A stretch of DNA of 64,000 nt from the sequence record PZ445487.1, one strand, 5' to 3'. A program made the translations under genes and the position numbers. Positions 14,921-41,532 of the stretch are shown here, in pieces. The notes under the pieces are model-generated. The model was not told the origin of the DNA. It did not search any database and saw only the letters and a program-made list of their open reading frames with translations. The stretch comes from a phage. Within the stretch, counting starts at the first letter, position 1; each line of letters begins with the position of its first letter.

Positions 14921-15538
14921 ATGACGATGACAACGTTGAAGGCCATGGCCTTGTCCGTGACCTTTACCATTGCCAGCGGGAGTGTGCACGCTTCCCAAAG
15001 TACCACCCAATGTGATTACGAATTTTCTGATCAACAACTTTCAACCATGGCCACAGCCTATCACATAGGCAAACAACAAGACCTTGGTTTCACCCTCGCC
15101 GCGATATCATGGAGGGAAAGCCGCGCCGGAGAAGATGTTGTATCCATGCGGAATAACCTGAAATCGGCTAACATGGGGGCATTTCAAAATCGCGTCCAAA
15201 CCGTCGGGAAACGGGAGGGATGCAAAACACAGAAGTGTTACGCCAATGTCGCGATCAAATTACTGGTCAATCAAGAATATGCTGCCAATGCTGCCCTTGA
15301 TGAAATGAATTTCTGGCTAGAATATCACAACCAAAACATTCGCAAATCCCTTTCCTCTTACAATGCTGGGTTCAATCGTAACCAGAAATCCAATTCTTAT
15401 GCAGCCGACGTCGTGAAGAAGGCTAAATATCTTCAACGATGTGTGTCTTTCAAAAGCATGGCAATAAACCCAAAGGTCGACCCAGGAGTGATCGCCATGA
15501 ATAAGCGCACGATTGAGAAACTCAAGAGGACCAGATAA
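14921..15538 (+). CDS. secreted lytic-transglycosylase-like protein (putative SLT domain)
   Basis: Signal peptide; AISWRESRAG...ANMGAFQ resembles SLT ES...GLMQ motifs. Confidence 0.45.
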   Translation: MTMTTLKAMALSVTFTIASGSVHASQSTTQCDYEFSDQQLSTMATAYHIGKQQDLGFTLAAISWRESRAGEDVVSMRNNLKSANMGAFQNRVQTVGKREGCKTQKCYANVAIKLLVNQEYAANAALDEMNFWLEYHNQNIRKSLSSYNAGFNRNQKSNSYAADVVKKAKYLQRCVSFKSMAINPKVDPGVIAMNKRTIEKLKRTR

Positions 15539-22963: not shown

Positions 22964-23758
22964 ATGGCCATTCTAAAACTTGGCAACCGAGGTTCTGAAG
23001 TCAAAGCACTTCAACAAAGCCTCAACAAAATCGGTTTCTCTCTTACAGCCGATGGCATATTTGGTAAGGCAACAGAGAATGCCGTCAAATCCGTTCAGGC
23101 AGGTGCTGGATTGGTTATTGATGGTATTGCTGGGCCAAAGACCTTCTATGCTATCCGCAACGCTGGAGACGCTCACCAGGAACATCTGACCGAAGCGGAC
23201 TTGGTTGACGCAGCACGTGAACTTGGTGTTGAGCTGGCCAGTATGAAAGCGGTGAACCAGGTAGAATCCCGTGGTACGGGTTTTACCAAAACTGGCAAGA
23301 TCAAAACTCTGTTTGAGCGCCACATCATGTACAAAAAGGTGACGGCCAAATTCGGGCAAGCAAGAGCCAATGCTCTGTACCAACTCTACCCAACATTGGT
23401 TAACCCCAATTCTGGCGGGTATATCGGCGGAGACGCGGAGTTGGAACGCCTTCAGGGTGCAATCGCCCTTGACGAGGACTGCGCTTACGAGAGTGCTTCC
23501 TACGGCCTATTCCAGATCATGGGGTTCAACTGCCAAATCTGTGGCTATTCAAATGCCAAAGAGATGTTCACTGATTTCCTGACTGGTGAACGCGCTCATC
23601 TTCTGGCATTTGTCAAGTTCATCAAGGCTGATGCCAATATGTGGAAAGCCCTGAAGAACAAGAATTGGGCCGAGTTTGCTCGTCGGTACAATGGTCCGGC
23701 ATATGCGAAAAACCAGTATGATACTAAACTGGCGGCAGCATACAAGAGTTTCTGTTAA
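22964..23758 (+). CDS. endolysin: peptidoglycan-binding domain + N-acetylmuramidase-like domain
   Basis: N-terminal PG_binding-like repeat (GSEVKALQQSLNKIGF...DGIFGKAT); C-terminal muramidase-like region; RBS GCGGAGG. Confidence 0.65.
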   Translation: MAILKLGNRGSEVKALQQSLNKIGFSLTADGIFGKATENAVKSVQAGAGLVIDGIAGPKTFYAIRNAGDAHQEHLTEADLVDAARELGVELASMKAVNQVESRGTGFTKTGKIKTLFERHIMYKKVTAKFGQARANALYQLYPTLVNPNSGGYIGGDAELERLQGAIALDEDCAYESASYGLFQIMGFNCQICGYSNAKEMFTDFLTGERAHLLAFVKFIKADANMWKALKNKNWAEFARRYNGPAYAKNQYDTKLAAAYKSFC

Positions 23759-29278: not shown

Positions 29279-29617
29279 ATGTACAAATTCCCGATATTAG
29301 AAACAGTGTACTCTGTTCACAAAAAGGAAGGTCCATTATTTGAAAATTTGGATATTCTGTTAAAGGAAAATGTCCGTATCCCTCTGGTTCTAAAGGGAAA
29401 GCAAATAGGATATAGCCATGACTGCCAAATAATGCGTTCTGAAGGCACCGACGTCTTACGCATCCGTCTGACATTTGTGTTGACAGGTAATCTGGACGGT
29501 ATGGTGGTTAATCTGAAACCAACCACCATAGTCCACAGAACGGGTGGGAAAATATTATATCGTTTATTAACTCATTTTGAGTTGGTGACAAAATGCTCTG
29601 CCACGGACGTTCTTTAA
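29279..29617 (+). CDS. hypothetical protein
   Basis: ORF track. Confidence 0.45.
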   Translation: MYKFPILETVYSVHKKEGPLFENLDILLKENVRIPLVLKGKQIGYSHDCQIMRSEGTDVLRIRLTFVLTGNLDGMVVNLKPTTIVHRTGGKILYRLLTHFELVTKCSATDVL

Positions 29618-29998
29618 TCAATTTGTCCGTTTCAACCATATGGTGTCTGTTATCGGCTCTGGGTTGTTGACCACATAGAACGTGATGGTTACGCCCAGAG
29701 AATGATAATCGTCCGACAATGATACATCAACAGATTGCAATTCAGCTCTTGGCTCAAAAAGAGCAATGGCATCTTCAACTTTGTTCTTCACGTCGACCTG
29801 TATCGTGGGATTTGTATTTTCTCCCAGCATGGTATACAACCCCGCCCCAATACTCGGATACGTCGGCCAATCACCTACCGTCGCCATCACTATATTACGC
29901 ACAGATTGTAGTACAGCATAAATGCCTGTTTTCTTAGTGACATCTTTGGTGACCGGATGCATGCCAAACTTCAGGTCAATGTCCTTGTACTCTTTCAT
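29618..29998 (-). CDS. 25: baseplate wedge protein gp25-like (GPW/gp25 family)
   Basis: Similarity by eye to T4 gp25 (DIDLKFG...VLQSVRNIV...GDWP); internal ATG chosen. Confidence 0.65.
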   Translation of the reverse strand: MKEYKDIDLKFGMHPVTKDVTKKTGIYAVLQSVRNIVMATVGDWPTYPSIGAGLYTMLGENTNPTIQVDVKNKVEDAIALFEPRAELQSVDVSLSDDYHSLGVTITFYVVNNPEPITDTIWLKRTN

Positions 29999-30062
29999 GT
30001 TAAACCCCTTTGGATATTGCCTCTCCAGCACGAGAGGGCATTATCTGCCCTCACCAGTGTAA

Positions 30063-31688
30063 TCATGCGCCTTTACCACCAAAATTGCCGCCGTTATCCT
30101 CTAACTCCGGTTTTATATCAATTGGACCTGGGCCTGTAGTTGTTACAGGAGTTGCCCCCGCACGTGAGGCGGCGCGGCCAGCGCCTTCAGCATATTTGAT
30201 GTTGCCTTCAATAGTCTGTGCAACCGATAATTTATCACAAATTATTTCAGTTGCCAGTATCTTAGGAACCTTCAAAGTGTTAGACACTTCAAACATTTCA
30301 CAGATGAGACGCAACACGTTCTGTGCCTGTATCTCAGCCAATTGGGAAAATTTCATCAACGCTGTTCCAGCGACCACATTGGAATAGTTAGAAGAGTGTA
30401 AGTGGTAAACTTCTCCTTTCTTGCGCTGTACTTCAGTCCCACCAATTGTCAGGTTATGATCACCCCCCACATAATAACGTTTGTCGAACATCGTCAGGTC
30501 ATAATGATCTTTGACTGATTTATTAACAACATCACCGTCAGGAAGCATTTGCTTGTAAGACCCAGAAGAGTGCATCCAATGCAAACGTTCCCCGCCTGGA
30601 GTGTCATCGACCTCCATAATATGCCCAGCTCGAGAAGCCATAACATTGTTGTATGGATAACGAGACCCTCCAGCCGAAGGAACCGATACCTCTCCTGTGT
30701 TGTCAATATCCTGAACACGACCAGAAGGAGGCGGTGTTTCTTGGACTTTCGGGGTACGATCTGGAATAGGTTCAGACCATTTACCGTTTTGTTGTGCCGG
30801 AGCTGCTGAAGCTGTAGTTGCTGGACCTGGCCAACGATAACCCAACACGGATGAGCGGCTAAAACGGCTCACCTTCACAGAATCGGATTGGTTTCCCCCG
30901 ATACACCAAACGTAGTTGGCGTCAAATTTCTGAACGAATGCAACGTGACCGAATGTCGGGTTGTTCCCGCGCCGGAACACTACAACAGCGCCGTAACGTG
31001 GTTCTGACAGAGGAGACCCCCATTGTAAATATGAACGAGCCAAAGCAGAACGTGTTGATGTATATCCGGCCTGTATCAGAACCCATCCGACAAACGACGC
31101 ACACCAACTAACTTCATCTTCTGACGCCCCCAGGGAAGTTGTCTTATGATATTCCAATATCCTTGGGTTGTTATTGAACTTACCAGAATATTCTTTGACA
31201 CCCAATTCCCCACGAGCCACGGTCATCCACTTCTCAGGATCATATCCGTCTACTGGTGGTTGTGGATCCGGTTGCGGTTCATCCTCAATCTTAACAGGAA
31301 CATTCTCGACGGCATTATACTTCTGCCTTTCTATAGATTGAACGACCTGACCCAGCGCCAATGGGTTTGTATCTGACCCATCTGTTGGTGTTGCTGCTGG
31401 CCATACCCATGCAATACGGATGTTCTGATATGCTTCATCCAAAGCAAACCCCATGACGTCAGAGCCGACAGTGATACCCGTCGGAGACCAGCCTAAACCT
31501 GCCGAGGAGGCGTTAGATGCTGGCATAAGCATTTTACCCCAAGGCAATAATTCTGTAGGCAGGAGAGTGGTATCCTCCGTGTGTACCCCATAGATGCGTA
31601 CTGCGACGCGCCCGTTTTGATCGGGATCATTCACGTCTTCAACGCGCCCGTAAAACCAACGCAAGTTGTCTAACATATTGAAACCCAT
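30063..31688 (-). CDS. 5: baseplate hub/central spike gp5-like with CHAP/NlpC-P60-like hydrolase domain
   Basis: N-terminus NLRWFYGRVEDVNDP..GRVAVRIYG..LPTE.LPW matches gp5 OB domain; middle region WCASFVGW...GHVAFV resembles Cys-His amidase; late promoter-like CATAAATA upstream. Confidence 0.7.
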   Translation of the reverse strand: MGFNMLDNLRWFYGRVEDVNDPDQNGRVAVRIYGVHTEDTTLLPTELLPWGKMLMPASNASSAGLGWSPTGITVGSDVMGFALDEAYQNIRIAWVWPAATPTDGSDTNPLALGQVVQSIERQKYNAVENVPVKIEDEPQPDPQPPVDGYDPEKWMTVARGELGVKEYSGKFNNNPRILEYHKTTSLGASEDEVSWCASFVGWVLIQAGYTSTRSALARSYLQWGSPLSEPRYGAVVVFRRGNNPTFGHVAFVQKFDANYVWCIGGNQSDSVKVSRFSRSSVLGYRWPGPATTASAAPAQQNGKWSEPIPDRTPKVQETPPPSGRVQDIDNTGEVSVPSAGGSRYPYNNVMASRAGHIMEVDDTPGGERLHWMHSSGSYKQMLPDGDVVNKSVKDHYDLTMFDKRYYVGGDHNLTIGGTEVQRKKGEVYHLHSSNYSNVVAGTALMKFSQLAEIQAQNVLRLICEMFEVSNTLKVPKILATEIICDKLSVAQTIEGNIKYAEGAGRAASRAGATPVTTTGPGPIDIKPELEDNGGNFGGKGA

Positions 31689-31709: not shown

Positions 31710-31717
31710 TATTTATG
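31710..31717 (-). promoter_or_regulatory. late promoter-like box CATAAATA upstream of gp5
   Basis: 7/8 match to T4 late consensus TATAAATA on minus strand, about 22 nt before gp5 ATG. Confidence 0.4.
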
Positions 31718-32015: not shown

Positions 32016-32045
32016 AGCAAAGAAAACCCCACATTACGTGGGGTT
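32016..32045 (-). terminator. rho-independent terminator (minus strand)
   Basis: Hairpin AACCCCAC-GTAAT-GTGGGGTT followed on minus strand by TTTTCTTTG. Confidence 0.55.
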
Positions 32046-32194
32046 GGAAGATTTCTTAGACAATCTAATTTTCAGTGTCTCGGTAAGCAAATCAAGATGC
32101 CACGGCATCGATTCACTGATTTCAAATATGCTATAGCCGTGTGCCTTTAATTCGTCACACATCACAAAATAGGAGAGTAAATCAATTTCAAAAA

Positions 32195-33001
32195 TTAAAT
32201 GAAAATCTCGGTGACACTGTTAAATTTGACTTCGTGTTCTTTCCCACACGAAGGGCATTTAATTTTTGTCGCGTAACGAATACGCGGAATCTTTTTAAAG
32301 AAATCATTCGAAATGTCCTGAACAATCTCAGATTCAATATTGTCCCCGACCCATTTGACAAATTCATCCTTAATGCGTTGGCGTTCTTTAGCAACTTCTG
32401 GATCGATACCAGGTTCAGCCGGATTTTCCACCTTCCAAACCTGACCATCGTCGTCATACAGACAATCGATAAAAGTGGCAATCATTTGTTCAACAGAGGA
32501 TGCTTCGTTGAGCACTGAGGCATCCGAGAAGGACGGCTGGCGCATCTTGATGTGATAGCCGCCAGGGAGGTCAAATGTTTCCCTGAAGCCTTCTGGGGAC
32601 ACGCATTTTACCTGATTGAGCGGGATCGGTAACACAAGCTCTTGACCACAATCTTTAAGGCCAGAAACTGGTTCTTCACCACCTTCATTGGTTTCGGCTT
32701 GAACTTTGTTATTACATTTGTAACGTATCTTCATGACCTCGCCGATAGATATACAGCGCATCTTTAAAAATACTTCTTCAGTAACACCGATTGGCAGTTT
32801 ACTAAAGGGAACGCCAGCATCAACACAACTGTCAAATAGTTGCTCCAATGTTGCCACGCGCTCACTCATAGGAGTGTTCGGATCAGCAACCTGAAGTAAC
32901 ATGGTCTGTTGCCCTGCTGTAAAGGCGCGGTATTTGATCACAGTCGGCCAGAAATCACTTTTATGTGTTCTCTCAGTTTTGGGCAATGATGGTAAATTCA
33001 T
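32195..33001 (-). CDS. late protein, possibly baseplate/structural, with C-terminal CxxC
   Basis: ORF track; perfect TATAAATA late promoter upstream on minus strand; C-terminal KCPSCGKEH. Confidence 0.5.
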   Translation of the reverse strand: MNLPSLPKTERTHKSDFWPTVIKYRAFTAGQQTMLLQVADPNTPMSERVATLEQLFDSCVDAGVPFSKLPIGVTEEVFLKMRCISIGEVMKIRYKCNNKVQAETNEGGEEPVSGLKDCGQELVLPIPLNQVKCVSPEGFRETFDLPGGYHIKMRQPSFSDASVLNEASSVEQMIATFIDCLYDDDGQVWKVENPAEPGIDPEVAKERQRIKDEFVKWVGDNIESEIVQDISNDFFKKIPRIRYATKIKCPSCGKEHEVKFNSVTEIFI

Positions 33002-33029: not shown

Positions 33030-33037
33030 TATTTATA
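33030..33037 (-). promoter_or_regulatory. late promoter TATAAATA
   Basis: Perfect 8-mer on minus strand about 29 nt upstream of minus ATG at 33001; gp55 encoded in same window. Confidence 0.55.
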
Positions 33038-37826: not shown

Positions 37827-37834
37827 TATTTATA
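37827..37834 (-). promoter_or_regulatory. late promoter TATAAATA
   Basis: Perfect 8-mer on minus strand about 35 nt upstream of GTG 37792. Confidence 0.5.
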
Positions 37835-40869: not shown

Positions 40870-41532
40870 ATGTCTTATTCGCTCAAAGGGCTGTTGAAGC
40901 GCCCTGTGCATTTGTTTGTCAAACCACCTGCTGTAGAAAGGGAATATTCGGCACGAGGAGAGTTGTATTACATTAAAGGCTCCAATGGTAGTGGTAAGTC
41001 TACTGTGCCTTCTTATTTGGCGGAGAATGATCCTCAGGCGTATGTCGTAACCCACAACAGTAAGATCATGCTCACGGTTTGTCCATCTTATAATATTGTC
41101 TGTGTCGGTAAATATGACAAGTCTAAGTCCAAAGGGGTTGATTCTCTGAAGGATACTGAGCAGATGTTGTTCGCGTTGTCTATTGCTGACCAACCAGAAT
41201 ACCTGAAATATGATGTGATTTTCGAAGGCATCATTCCGTCTACATTATTGAGTTCTTGGATTCCCCGCCTGACACGCCCACCACGTGAATTGGTCGTCCT
41301 CTTTATGGATACCCCTCTTGAAACCTGTATTGCCCGTGTTAAATCGCGTAACGGTGGCGCAGACTTCAATGAAAGTCTGGTGGTCGAGAAGTGGGAGAGA
41401 GTTCATGATCACCGTCAACGGCATAAAGGCTTGTTCCCTACCGTTCCCGCAGGTATGATGAAGTCCGATGGCCTGACTGTAGAGCAGGCTGTTTTTGCGT
41501 TTCTCAATCGTGATTTTGGGAGTATTTATTGA
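40870..41532 (+). CDS. P-loop kinase (candidate 5-hydroxymethyl-dU DNA kinase)
   Basis: Walker A GSNGSGKST; internal ATG with GGAG RBS; stop overlaps hydroxymethylase start (TGATG). Confidence 0.5.
   Translation: MSYSLKGLLKRPVHLFVKPPAVEREYSARGELYYIKGSNGSGKSTVPSYLAENDPQAYVVTHNSKIMLTVCPSYNIVCVGKYDKSKSKGVDSLKDTEQMLFALSIADQPEYLKYDVIFEGIIPSTLLSSWIPRLTRPPRELVVLFMDTPLETCIARVKSRNGGADFNESLVVEKWERVHDHRQRHKGLFPTVPAGMMKSDGLTVEQAVFAFLNRDFGSIY

What the first reader, a model, noticed from the sequence alone, without database searches (positions are those of the whole stretch)
30063..31688. gp5-like baseplate hub carries a CHAP/NlpC-P60-like domain instead of the T4 lysozyme domain and lacks a long beta-helix
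The N-terminus aligns by eye with the T4 gp5 OB domain, but the middle region (WCASFVGW ... GHVAFV) looks like a Cys-His amidase/peptidase rather than a T4-lysozyme fold, and the C-terminus is short and Gly-rich with no long triplex beta-helix repeats. That implies a different cell-wall bond is cut during penetration and that the puncturing needle is supplied by another protein.
Basis: partly seen in the sequence, partly recalled or inferred. Interest (0 to 1): 0.55.

Follow-up and report, generated by a model that had tools for sequence, protein, structure and literature searches.

The report
Known phage spike with cysteine peptidase
This gene is the central tail spike (gp5) of E. coli O157 phage CBA120, in which an NlpC/P60-type cysteine peptidase replaces the usual lysozyme; the swap is real but was published in 2011, and the claim that the spike has no beta-helix of its own does not hold.

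Summary
The window is Escherichia phage CBA120 (Kuttervirus, Ackermannviridae), reverse strand, 99.997% identical to NC_016570. [quoted passage not shown]

Confirmed: the N-terminus is a gp5 OB domain. The middle (aa ~150-287) is a full-length TIGR02594 / CHAP / NlpC-P60 Cys-His peptidase. Its structure model is confident and its best fold matches are D,L-endopeptidases. No lysozyme fold appears. Cys196, His248 and Asn266/Gln267 are invariant across homologues.

Not confirmed: the "short C-terminus without a beta-helix". The C-terminal region is about 200 aa. Residues 341-436 are homologous to the start of the T4 gp5 beta-helix. Residues 440-500 form a lineage-specific extended module. Only the last ~40 aa are Gly-rich, and they are conserved (…ELxDNGGNF). 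T4-type VxG repeats are indeed absent. I found no PAAR or other separate spike protein in the genome.

Enzyme-less relatives of 324-360 aa share every other part of the spike. The peptidase is therefore a cassette inserted at the position where T4 has its lysozyme.

Kutter et al. 2011 (PMC3184105) already described the CHAP/TIGR02594 replacement, so this is already known and of low interest.

The parts
30063..31688 (-). [quoted passage not shown] The probable true start is Met5 at 31676 (537 aa). The stop codon is at 30063-30065.
   Evidence: PHROG 430 at 2e-158 over aa 1-504
31395..31676 (-). N-terminal gp5-type OB domain (aa 5-98). It is expected to dock on the hub.
   Evidence: Pfam Gp5_OB 6e-10. 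Aligns to T4 gp5 6-91. AF2 pLDDT is 82-88 except for the loop at aa 57-70.
31242..31394 (-). Linker 1 (aa 99-149), Pro/Glu-rich and predicted disordered. From about aa 134 onward it belongs to the insertion that enzyme-less relatives lack.
   Evidence: pLDDT below 50 at aa 100-145; alignment A6
30828..31241 (-). TIGR02594 / CHAP / NlpC-P60 papain-like cysteine peptidase domain (aa 150-287).
31101..31103 (-). Codon of Cys196, the predicted catalytic nucleophile (motif WCASFVGW).
   Evidence: Invariant in 20 homologues and conserved in at least 90% of the 27 sequences in the domain alignment. Codon verified.
30945..30947 (-). Codon of His248, the predicted catalytic base (motif GHVAFV).
   Evidence: Invariant; codon verified
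30888..30893 (-). Codons of Asn266-Gln267 (motif GGNQSD). These are candidates for the third polar residue of the catalytic site.
   Evidence: Invariant. They lie at the end of the CHAP profile match. The assignment to the triad is an inference.
30669..30827 (-). Linker 2 (aa 288-340). It contains the conserved 'W-SEPIPDR' element, which enzyme-less spikes and T4 (PPIPNDSR) also have. The extra segment at aa ~313-340 is absent from enzyme-less relatives.
   Evidence: low pLDDT
30372..30668 (-). Proximal beta-helix (aa 341-439), homologous to T4 gp5 384-480: the antiparallel sheet plus the first intertwined turns.
   Evidence: phmmer domain E 1.4e-15. BLASTP alignment. AF2 strands at aa 347-390 with pLDDT 80-91. 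T4 domain boundaries from PMC4576200.
30189..30371 (-). Distal spike module (aa 440-500), lineage-specific. It is predicted extended with alternating hydrophobic residues and ends in ...INGNIKYAEGAG.
   Evidence: pLDDT 77-87 to about aa 470. Conserved. No similarity to distal T4 gp5, the PDB or Pfam. Shared with enzyme-less spikes.
30066..30188 (-). Gly-rich but conserved C-terminal tail (aa 501-541) ending in ELEDNGGNF. It may form the apex of the spike or a docking site.
   Evidence: P514, L529, D531, G533, G534, N535 and F536 are at least 90% conserved. Distant relatives carry DNGGDY. pLDDT is below 50 in the monomer model. The function is an inference.
29618..30031 (-). Downstream gene, the gp25-like baseplate wedge subunit (orf093). 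It is probably co-transcribed with gp5.
   Evidence: Pfam GPW_gp25 1.7e-8; PHROG 261/43; annotation
32195..33001 (-). Upstream gene, the gp26-like baseplate hub subunit (orf090).
   Evidence: Pfam T4_baseplate 1e-51; PHROG 150
31710..31716 (-). ATAAATA box 21 nt upstream of the first ATG of gp5. It is a candidate late-promoter element, unproven.

Best explanation
orf092 is the central cell-puncturing spike of the CBA120 contractile tail. It is a gp5-family protein that most likely forms a trimer.

Its N-terminal OB domain seats it in the baseplate hub, next to the gp26-like and gp25-like proteins encoded beside it. Its C-terminal ~200 residues form the spike shaft. That shaft is a T4-like proximal beta-helix (aa 341-439), then a lineage-specific extended module (aa 440-500), then a conserved tail ending in DNGGNF.

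An NlpC/P60-type (TIGR02594/CHAP) cysteine peptidase cassette is inserted between OB and shaft, where T4 carries a lysozyme. When the sheath contracts, the spike is driven through the outer membrane. The three peptidase domains then reach the peptidoglycan and cut stem peptides, most likely the gamma-D-Glu-mDAP bond, using Cys196 and His248. This opens a local hole for the tail tube.

Shown here: domain identities, fold, residue conservation, homology of the proximal helix, the insertion architecture, and the absence of a PAAR homologue. Inferred: trimeric state, enzymatic activity, bond specificity, and the role of the tail.
For: Identity: the window is 99.997% identical to CBA120, and the gene is annotated as gp5.

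Catalytic residues: Cys196, His248 and Asn266/Gln267 are invariant.

Shaft: aa 341-436 align to T4 gp5 384-477. The full-length model's best Foldseek hits are T4-type gp5 chains at about 4e-14.

Insertion: enzyme-less homologues of 324-360 aa, including Aeromonas phage phiA8-29, align on both sides of aa ~134-299.

Virion component: the ViI orthologue and the Sajous1 orthologue were detected by virion proteomics (PMC3184105; PMC10892097).

Separate exit enzyme: the phage's endolysin is a different protein, a muramidase.
Against: No enzymatic assay exists for this protein or any orthologue that I could find.

Bond specificity cannot be read from the fold. CHAP and NlpC/P60 members include amidases and cross-link endopeptidases as well as D,L-endopeptidases.

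The distal 100 aa have no solved or annotated relative. The monomer model cannot show a trimeric helix.

Enzyme-less relatives show that a spike of this lineage can work without any hydrolase. The peptidase may therefore be accessory.
Confidence: 0.85

Rival explanations
1. The architecture is the same, but the peptidase cuts a different bond. It could be an N-acetylmuramoyl-L-alanine amidase, as many CHAP domains are, or an mDAP-D-Ala / mDAP-mDAP cross-link endopeptidase, like MepS or Tae2/Tae3. In either case it would not be a gamma-D-Glu-mDAP endopeptidase.
Confidence: 0.3
2. The peptidase is an accessory cassette and is not required for penetration. It would help only on thick or highly cross-linked walls, for example in stationary-phase cells. 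Mechanical puncture by the spike would be enough otherwise.
For: Related spikes of 324-360 aa have no enzymatic domain at all, including a cultured Aeromonas phage. gp5-OB homologues carry many alternative enzymes (M15 peptidases, SLT, lysozyme) or none. A stationary-phase-specific benefit is the title finding for the TM4 tape-measure hydrolase motif (PMC1796659, listed).
Against: The catalytic residues and the whole domain are strictly conserved across Ackermannviridae, down to 60% overall identity. That argues for selection on activity.
Confidence: 0.3
3. One reading: gp5 here is a hub-plus-enzyme protein without a real beta-helix, and a separate protein supplies the puncturing needle.
For: Pfam Gp5_C repeats are absent. 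The distal part does not resemble the T4 helix. A free-standing Sf6-type 'tail needle knob' protein (orf226) is encoded elsewhere and was found in virions of a relative.
Against: aa 341-436 are clearly homologous to the base of the T4 beta-helix, and a conserved extended module follows. No PAAR or second gp5/gpV-like spike was detected in 116 ORFs. The knob gene is reduced to a 35-aa remnant in Det7, allotria and pertopsoe, and it also occurs in T4-like phages that have gp5 and gp5.4. It is therefore not an obligatory spike component.
Confidence: 0.05

Closest known systems
Bacteriophage T4 gp5 (tail-associated lysozyme / cell-puncturing device; PDB 1K28, 1WTH)
   Same: It has the N-terminal OB domain, an enzyme domain between OB and shaft, a linker with a PIP-D-R element, and a proximal triple beta-helix (aa 341-436 match T4 384-477). 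It is also linked to baseplate genes.
   Different: The enzyme is an NlpC/P60/TIGR02594 cysteine peptidase, not a GH24 lysozyme. The distal helix lacks the VxG octapeptide repeats and is replaced by an unrelated module plus a DNGGNF tail. No gp5.4/PAAR cap was found in the genome.
gp5 orthologues of other Ackermannviridae (Vi01, PhiSH19, LIMEstone1, phiEa2809, 3M)
   Same: They share the OB-TIGR02594-helix architecture at 60-98% identity. They are already annotated or described as gp5 with a CHAP domain.
   Different: The 605-617-aa homologues (named members: Erwinia phage phiEa2809 and Serratia phage 3M) add about 75 aa after NGGNF. This is a Ser/Ala/Thr-rich linker plus a mini-domain of roughly 30 aa.
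Hub-hydrolases of Gram-positive-targeting contractile systems: diffocin CD1368 (8V3W_H) and Staphylococcus phage 812 hub protein (9EUF_E, 9EUM)
   Different: They belong to different hub protein families, with no gp5 OB and no T4-like beta-helix. Their targets have thick Gram-positive walls.
Free-standing TIGR02594 proteins: phage endolysins (e.g. Pseudomonas phage ZC01_075) and T6SS VgrG-associated effectors of Stenotrophomonas
   Same: They have the same catalytic domain family. The closest domains are about 50% identical (PMC5418858; PMC13055248).
   Different: They are delivered as soluble lysins or effectors and are not embedded in a spike.
[quoted passage not shown]
   Same: They share the OB domain, the EP..DR linker element, the proximal helix, the distal module and, in P0067, P0069 and P0070, the C-terminal DNGG[DN][YF] motif.
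   Different: They have no hydrolase domain. CBA120 carries an insertion of about 165 aa (aa ~134-299) and a second one of about 28 aa (aa ~313-340).

Membership tests
T4 gp5-type baseplate central spike | N-terminal gp5 OB-fold domain | tested here: met
   Pfam Gp5_OB 6.2e-10, above the cutoff. Aligns to T4 gp5 6-91. Confident model.
T4 gp5-type baseplate central spike | Central T4-lysozyme (GH24) domain | tested here: not met
T4 gp5-type baseplate central spike | C-terminal triple-stranded beta-helix | tested here: inconclusive
   The proximal half is met by homology: aa 341-436 match T4 384-477 at E 1.4e-15. The T4-type Gp5_C repeats are not detected, and the distal part is unrelated. The trimeric fold could not be modelled, because only monomer prediction was available.
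T4 gp5-type baseplate central spike | Encoded with baseplate hub/wedge genes and present in the virion | tested here: met
   It is flanked by gp26-like and gp25-like genes. Virion proteomics of orthologues is reported in PMC3184105 and PMC10892097.
T4 gp5-type baseplate central spike | Trimer bound to a gp27-like hub; maturation cleavage in the linker | not testable with these tools
   This needs multimer modelling, cryo-EM or protein chemistry. orf045 (PHROG 350, 'tail protein') is only a candidate hub partner.
NlpC/P60-CHAP superfamily, TIGR02594 subfamily | Profile match above the curated cutoff over the full domain | tested here: met
   TIGR02594 scores 132.9 bits against a cutoff of 70.55, profile positions 2-132 of 132. 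CHAP scores 40.7 bits against a cutoff of 26.
NlpC/P60-CHAP superfamily, TIGR02594 subfamily | Conserved catalytic Cys and His, plus a polar third residue | tested here: met
   C196, H248, N266 and Q267 are invariant in 20 sequences. In the 27-sequence domain alignment H, N and Q are invariant and C is conserved in at least 90%.
NlpC/P60-CHAP superfamily, TIGR02594 subfamily | Papain-like alpha+beta fold | tested here: met
NlpC/P60-CHAP superfamily, TIGR02594 subfamily | Peptidoglycan peptidase/amidase activity | not testable with these tools
   No assay of this protein or an orthologue turned up in the literature searches.
PAAR-capped spike (gp5-gp5.4 / VgrG-PAAR type) | A PAAR-repeat protein encoded in the genome | tested here: not met
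   No PAAR_motif hit was found among 96 small ORFs (none with E<0.0026) or 20 larger or structural ORFs. phmmer with a T4-like gp5.4 found nothing. As a positive control, that gp5.4 hits PAAR_motif at 9.4e-10. ORFs under 65 aa and ORFs with an assigned function were not scanned.

The most novel reading that the evidence does not exclude
The Ackermannviridae-type gp5 is a self-capped spike. The three copies of the conserved C-terminal tail (GPGxIxI..ELxDNGGNF, or DNGGDY in distant enzyme-less relatives) would fold into the membrane-attacking apex, possibly around a metal ion. That would replace the PAAR protein that T4 and T6SS spikes need and that this genome appears to lack. This would define a third kind of spike tip, alongside PAAR caps and the Fe-binding apex of P2 gpV and phi92 gp138.
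Probability: 0.25. Interest if true: 0.4.

Novelty: already known. Interest (0 to 1): 0.15.

Why it matters
Swapping a glycosidase for a peptidase in a gp5-type spike shows that the enzyme slot of the cell-puncturing device is modular. It also gives a candidate virion-associated lysin active on Gram-negative peptidoglycan. This has been in the literature for this very phage since 2011, so the finding adds nothing new.

The modest additions from this work are:
- The spike does keep a T4-like proximal helix.
- The peptidase is a clean insertion into a spike lineage that also exists without any enzyme.
- No PAAR cap is detectable.
- The Gly-rich C-terminal tail carries a conserved DNGG motif of unknown role.

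Tried and rejected
1. Separate needle or tip protein. phmmer with a T4-like gp5.4 against all CBA120 ORFs of at least 40 aa found nothing. Pfam scans of 116 ORFs found no PAAR, and the positive control worked.

2. orf226, the Sf6-type tail needle knob, as a spike tip. I rejected it as obligatory. It is reduced to a 35-aa remnant in Det7, allotria and pertopsoe, and it also occurs free-standing in T4-like phages that have gp5 and gp5.4.

3. Distal region aa 436-541 against T4 gp5C by hhalign gave probability 0.5%. It gave no PDB hit at E<0.8 and no Pfam hit at E<=10, so it could not be assigned.

4. ATAAATA as a T4-like late promoter. Three of the four occurrences in the window lie about 20-35 nt upstream of baseplate genes. 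Genome-wide, however, it does not precede most late genes. Inconclusive.

5. Locating the weak SLT hit with phmmer using SLT-containing homologues failed. A motif regex pointed to orf114.

6. Rfam scan of the whole window found no RNA family.

7. Literature searches found no cryo-EM structure of an Ackermannviridae baseplate and no enzymology of this domain.

Full report
Identity of the locus. The 64-kb window is Escherichia phage CBA120 (Kuttervirus, Ackermannviridae) in reverse orientation. It corresponds to record positions 78301-14302 of NC_016570, at 99.997% identity with two mismatches. [quoted passage not shown] The annotation and most homologues start four codons later, at Met5 (31676), giving 537 aa. 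The gene lies between a gp26-like hub gene (32195..33001, Pfam T4_baseplate 1e-51) and a gp25-like wedge gene (29618..30031, GPW_gp25 1.7e-8), all on the minus strand.

Checking the observation: N-terminus and middle. The N-terminal claim holds. Pfam Gp5_OB matches at 6e-10, and aa 7-87 align to T4 gp5 residues 6-91. The middle-domain claim also holds, and strongly. NCBIfam TIGR02594 matches aa 154-286 over the entire profile at 8.6e-39, almost twice the curated cutoff. Pfam CHAP matches at 3.3e-10. The quoted motifs contain Cys196 and His248, and these, with Asn266/Gln267, are invariant across homologues down to about 30% identity.

Checking the observation: C-terminus. This claim is only partly right. 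The part after the peptidase is about 250 aa, not short. Residues 341-436 are homologous to T4 gp5 residues 384-477 (domain E-value 1.4e-15). According to Buth et al. 2015, that stretch of T4 gp5 is the antiparallel base and the first intertwined turns of the beta-helix (389-427 and 428 onward). The full-length AF2 model shows strands at aa 347-390. It then keeps an extended chain at pLDDT 77-91 up to about aa 470, as expected for one chain of an intertwined trimer modelled alone. Also correct is that aa 436-541 resemble neither distal T4 gp5 (hhalign probability 0.5%), nor any PDB chain, nor any Pfam family. Only the last ~41 residues are Gly-rich. They are nevertheless conserved: P514, L529, D531, G533, G534, N535 and F536 are each at least 90% conserved.

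What the distal part is. I ran an exhaustive HMMER search with the distal module against 1.84 billion representative proteins. It found a small family (11 hits at E<=0.001) that includes gp5-like proteins of only 324-360 aa. These have the OB domain, the same 'EP..DR' linker element, the proximal helix and the distal module; P0067, P0069 and P0070 also carry a C-terminal DNGGDY motif. They have no enzymatic domain. A cultured example is Aeromonas phage phiA8-29. When they are aligned with CBA120 gp5, the peptidase and its linkers form one clean insertion (aa ~134-299), and a second short insertion sits at aa ~313-340. One 998-aa relative (P0066) instead carries extra domains after the spike. 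Other gp5-OB homologues carry M15 peptidases, SLT or lysozyme domains. The enzyme slot of this spike lineage is therefore modular. The Ackermannviridae version acquired a TIGR02594 cassette whose closest relatives, about 50% identical, sit in multidomain lysins.

Is the needle supplied by another protein? I found no support for this. A T4-like gp5.4 used as a phmmer query finds nothing in the CBA120 genome. Pfam scans of 96 small ORFs and 20 larger or structural ORFs give no PAAR hit, while the same model detects the T4-like gp5.4 at 9.4e-10. A free-standing Sf6-type tail-needle-knob protein (orf226, outside the window; PF16532 5.8e-29) is a virion protein in a relative. However, it is reduced to a remnant in several Kutterviruses, and it also occurs in T4-like phages that have gp5 and gp5.4. 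It is therefore unlikely to be the spike tip. The simplest reading is that gp5 itself is the needle. What caps it is unknown.

Mechanism. The following is shown here:
- the domain order OB - peptidase - linker - proximal helix - distal module - tail
- conservation of the catalytic residues
- the papain-like fold
- the baseplate gene context
- virion presence of orthologues, taken from PMC3184105 and PMC10892097

The following is inferred. A gp5 trimer sits on the tail axis. Sheath contraction drives it through the outer membrane. The three peptidase domains then cleave peptidoglycan stem peptides, most likely at gamma-D-Glu-mDAP given the best structural neighbours. This clears the way for the tail tube. 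The phage's exit enzyme is a different protein, a PG_binding_1 + muramidase endolysin (orf102). Entry and exit would thus attack different bonds.

Prior knowledge and verdict. Kutter et al. 2011 (Virol J 8:430) have a section titled 'Baseplate Lysozyme'. It states that this 537-aa protein lacks the usual lysozyme and carries a putative CHAP domain of the TIGR02594 family (NlpC/P60 superfamily) at aa 150-282. It also states that this domain is flanked by regions (aa 3-109 and 334-437) shared with T4 gp5. The PhiSH19 genome paper lists the orthologue as 'Gp5 OB family & CHAP domain'. Peptidase-bearing hub proteins are also structurally known in diffocin and in phage 812. The finding is therefore real but already known. 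Its one original interpretive claim, no beta-helix and an external needle, is not supported. Interest is low. What remains open is the unassigned distal module, the conserved DNGG tail, and the apparent lack of a PAAR cap.

Noticed in passing
window 32034..32165 (-), with a hairpin at 32025..32045 (-): The 505-bp 'empty' gap between gp26 and gp5 holds a 43-aa ORF that matches PHROG 9633 at 4e-29. It is not annotated in NC_016570. A strong hairpin plus T-run terminator (AACCCCACGTAATGTGGGGTT TTCTTTG) overlaps its 3' end.
   Followed up: partly
window 29279..29617 (+): A 112-aa ORF on the opposite strand just downstream of gp25 matches PHROG 6103 at 1.4e-62. It falls in an unannotated gap of the RefSeq record, between orf093 and orf095.
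   Followed up: partly
window 31710-31716, 33030-33036, 37827-37833, 41523-41529 (all on the - strand): ATAAATA occurs only 4 times in 64 kb, against 11.3 +/- 3.1 expected, and always on the minus strand. Three copies sit about 20-35 nt upstream of baseplate or tail genes: gp5, gp26, and orf081 'tail tube protein'. Genome-wide it does not precede most late genes, so its role as a late-promoter element is unresolved.
   Followed up: partly
homologues P0014-P0022 (named members Serratia phage 3M and Erwinia phage phiEa2809), aligned to window aa 536-541: gp5 homologues of 605-617 aa extend about 75 aa beyond the NGGNF motif. The extension is a Ser/Ala/Thr-rich linker plus a conserved mini-domain of roughly 30 aa (…VIILRQAGSKPQMMLSNGxTWE…). 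It has no Pfam match and its function is unknown.
   Followed up: partly
outside the window: NC_016570 138789-139307 (L005:27790-28308): orf226 is a free-standing Sf6-type tail-needle-knob domain protein (PF16532, 5.8e-29) in a myovirus. A relative carries it in the virion. Homologues occur in Kuttervirus, Limestonevirus and some T4-like phages, and it is truncated in Det7, allotria and pertopsoe. Where it sits in the virion is unknown.
   Followed up: partly
window 14921..15538 (+) (orf114, Vs.1-like): This 205-aa protein has a signal-peptide-like N-terminus and an E-S…GAFQ motif. It is probably the ORF behind a weak Pfam SLT hit (7.6e-5), which would make it a possible additional periplasmic lytic transglycosylase.
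   Followed up: partly
window 22964..23758 (+) (orf102): The phage endolysin is PG_binding_1 + Muramidase (PF11860, 3.8e-58). Kutter et al. 2011 reported that no lysis enzyme had been identified. It is now annotated.
   Followed up: yes
metagenomic protein P0066 (998 aa): A relative of the spike has OB, helix and distal module within its first ~340 aa. A long C-terminal extension follows that, by eye, includes an amidase_2/PGRP-like segment and a fibre-like end. This would put an enzyme after the spike instead of inside it. I ran no domain search on it.
   Followed up: no
window 31674..31688 (-): The ORF as reported starts at an ATG four codons upstream of the annotated start. Nearly all homologues begin at the second ATG (MLDN…), which also aligns with the T4 gp5 N-terminus. 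The true start is therefore probably 31676.
   Followed up: yes
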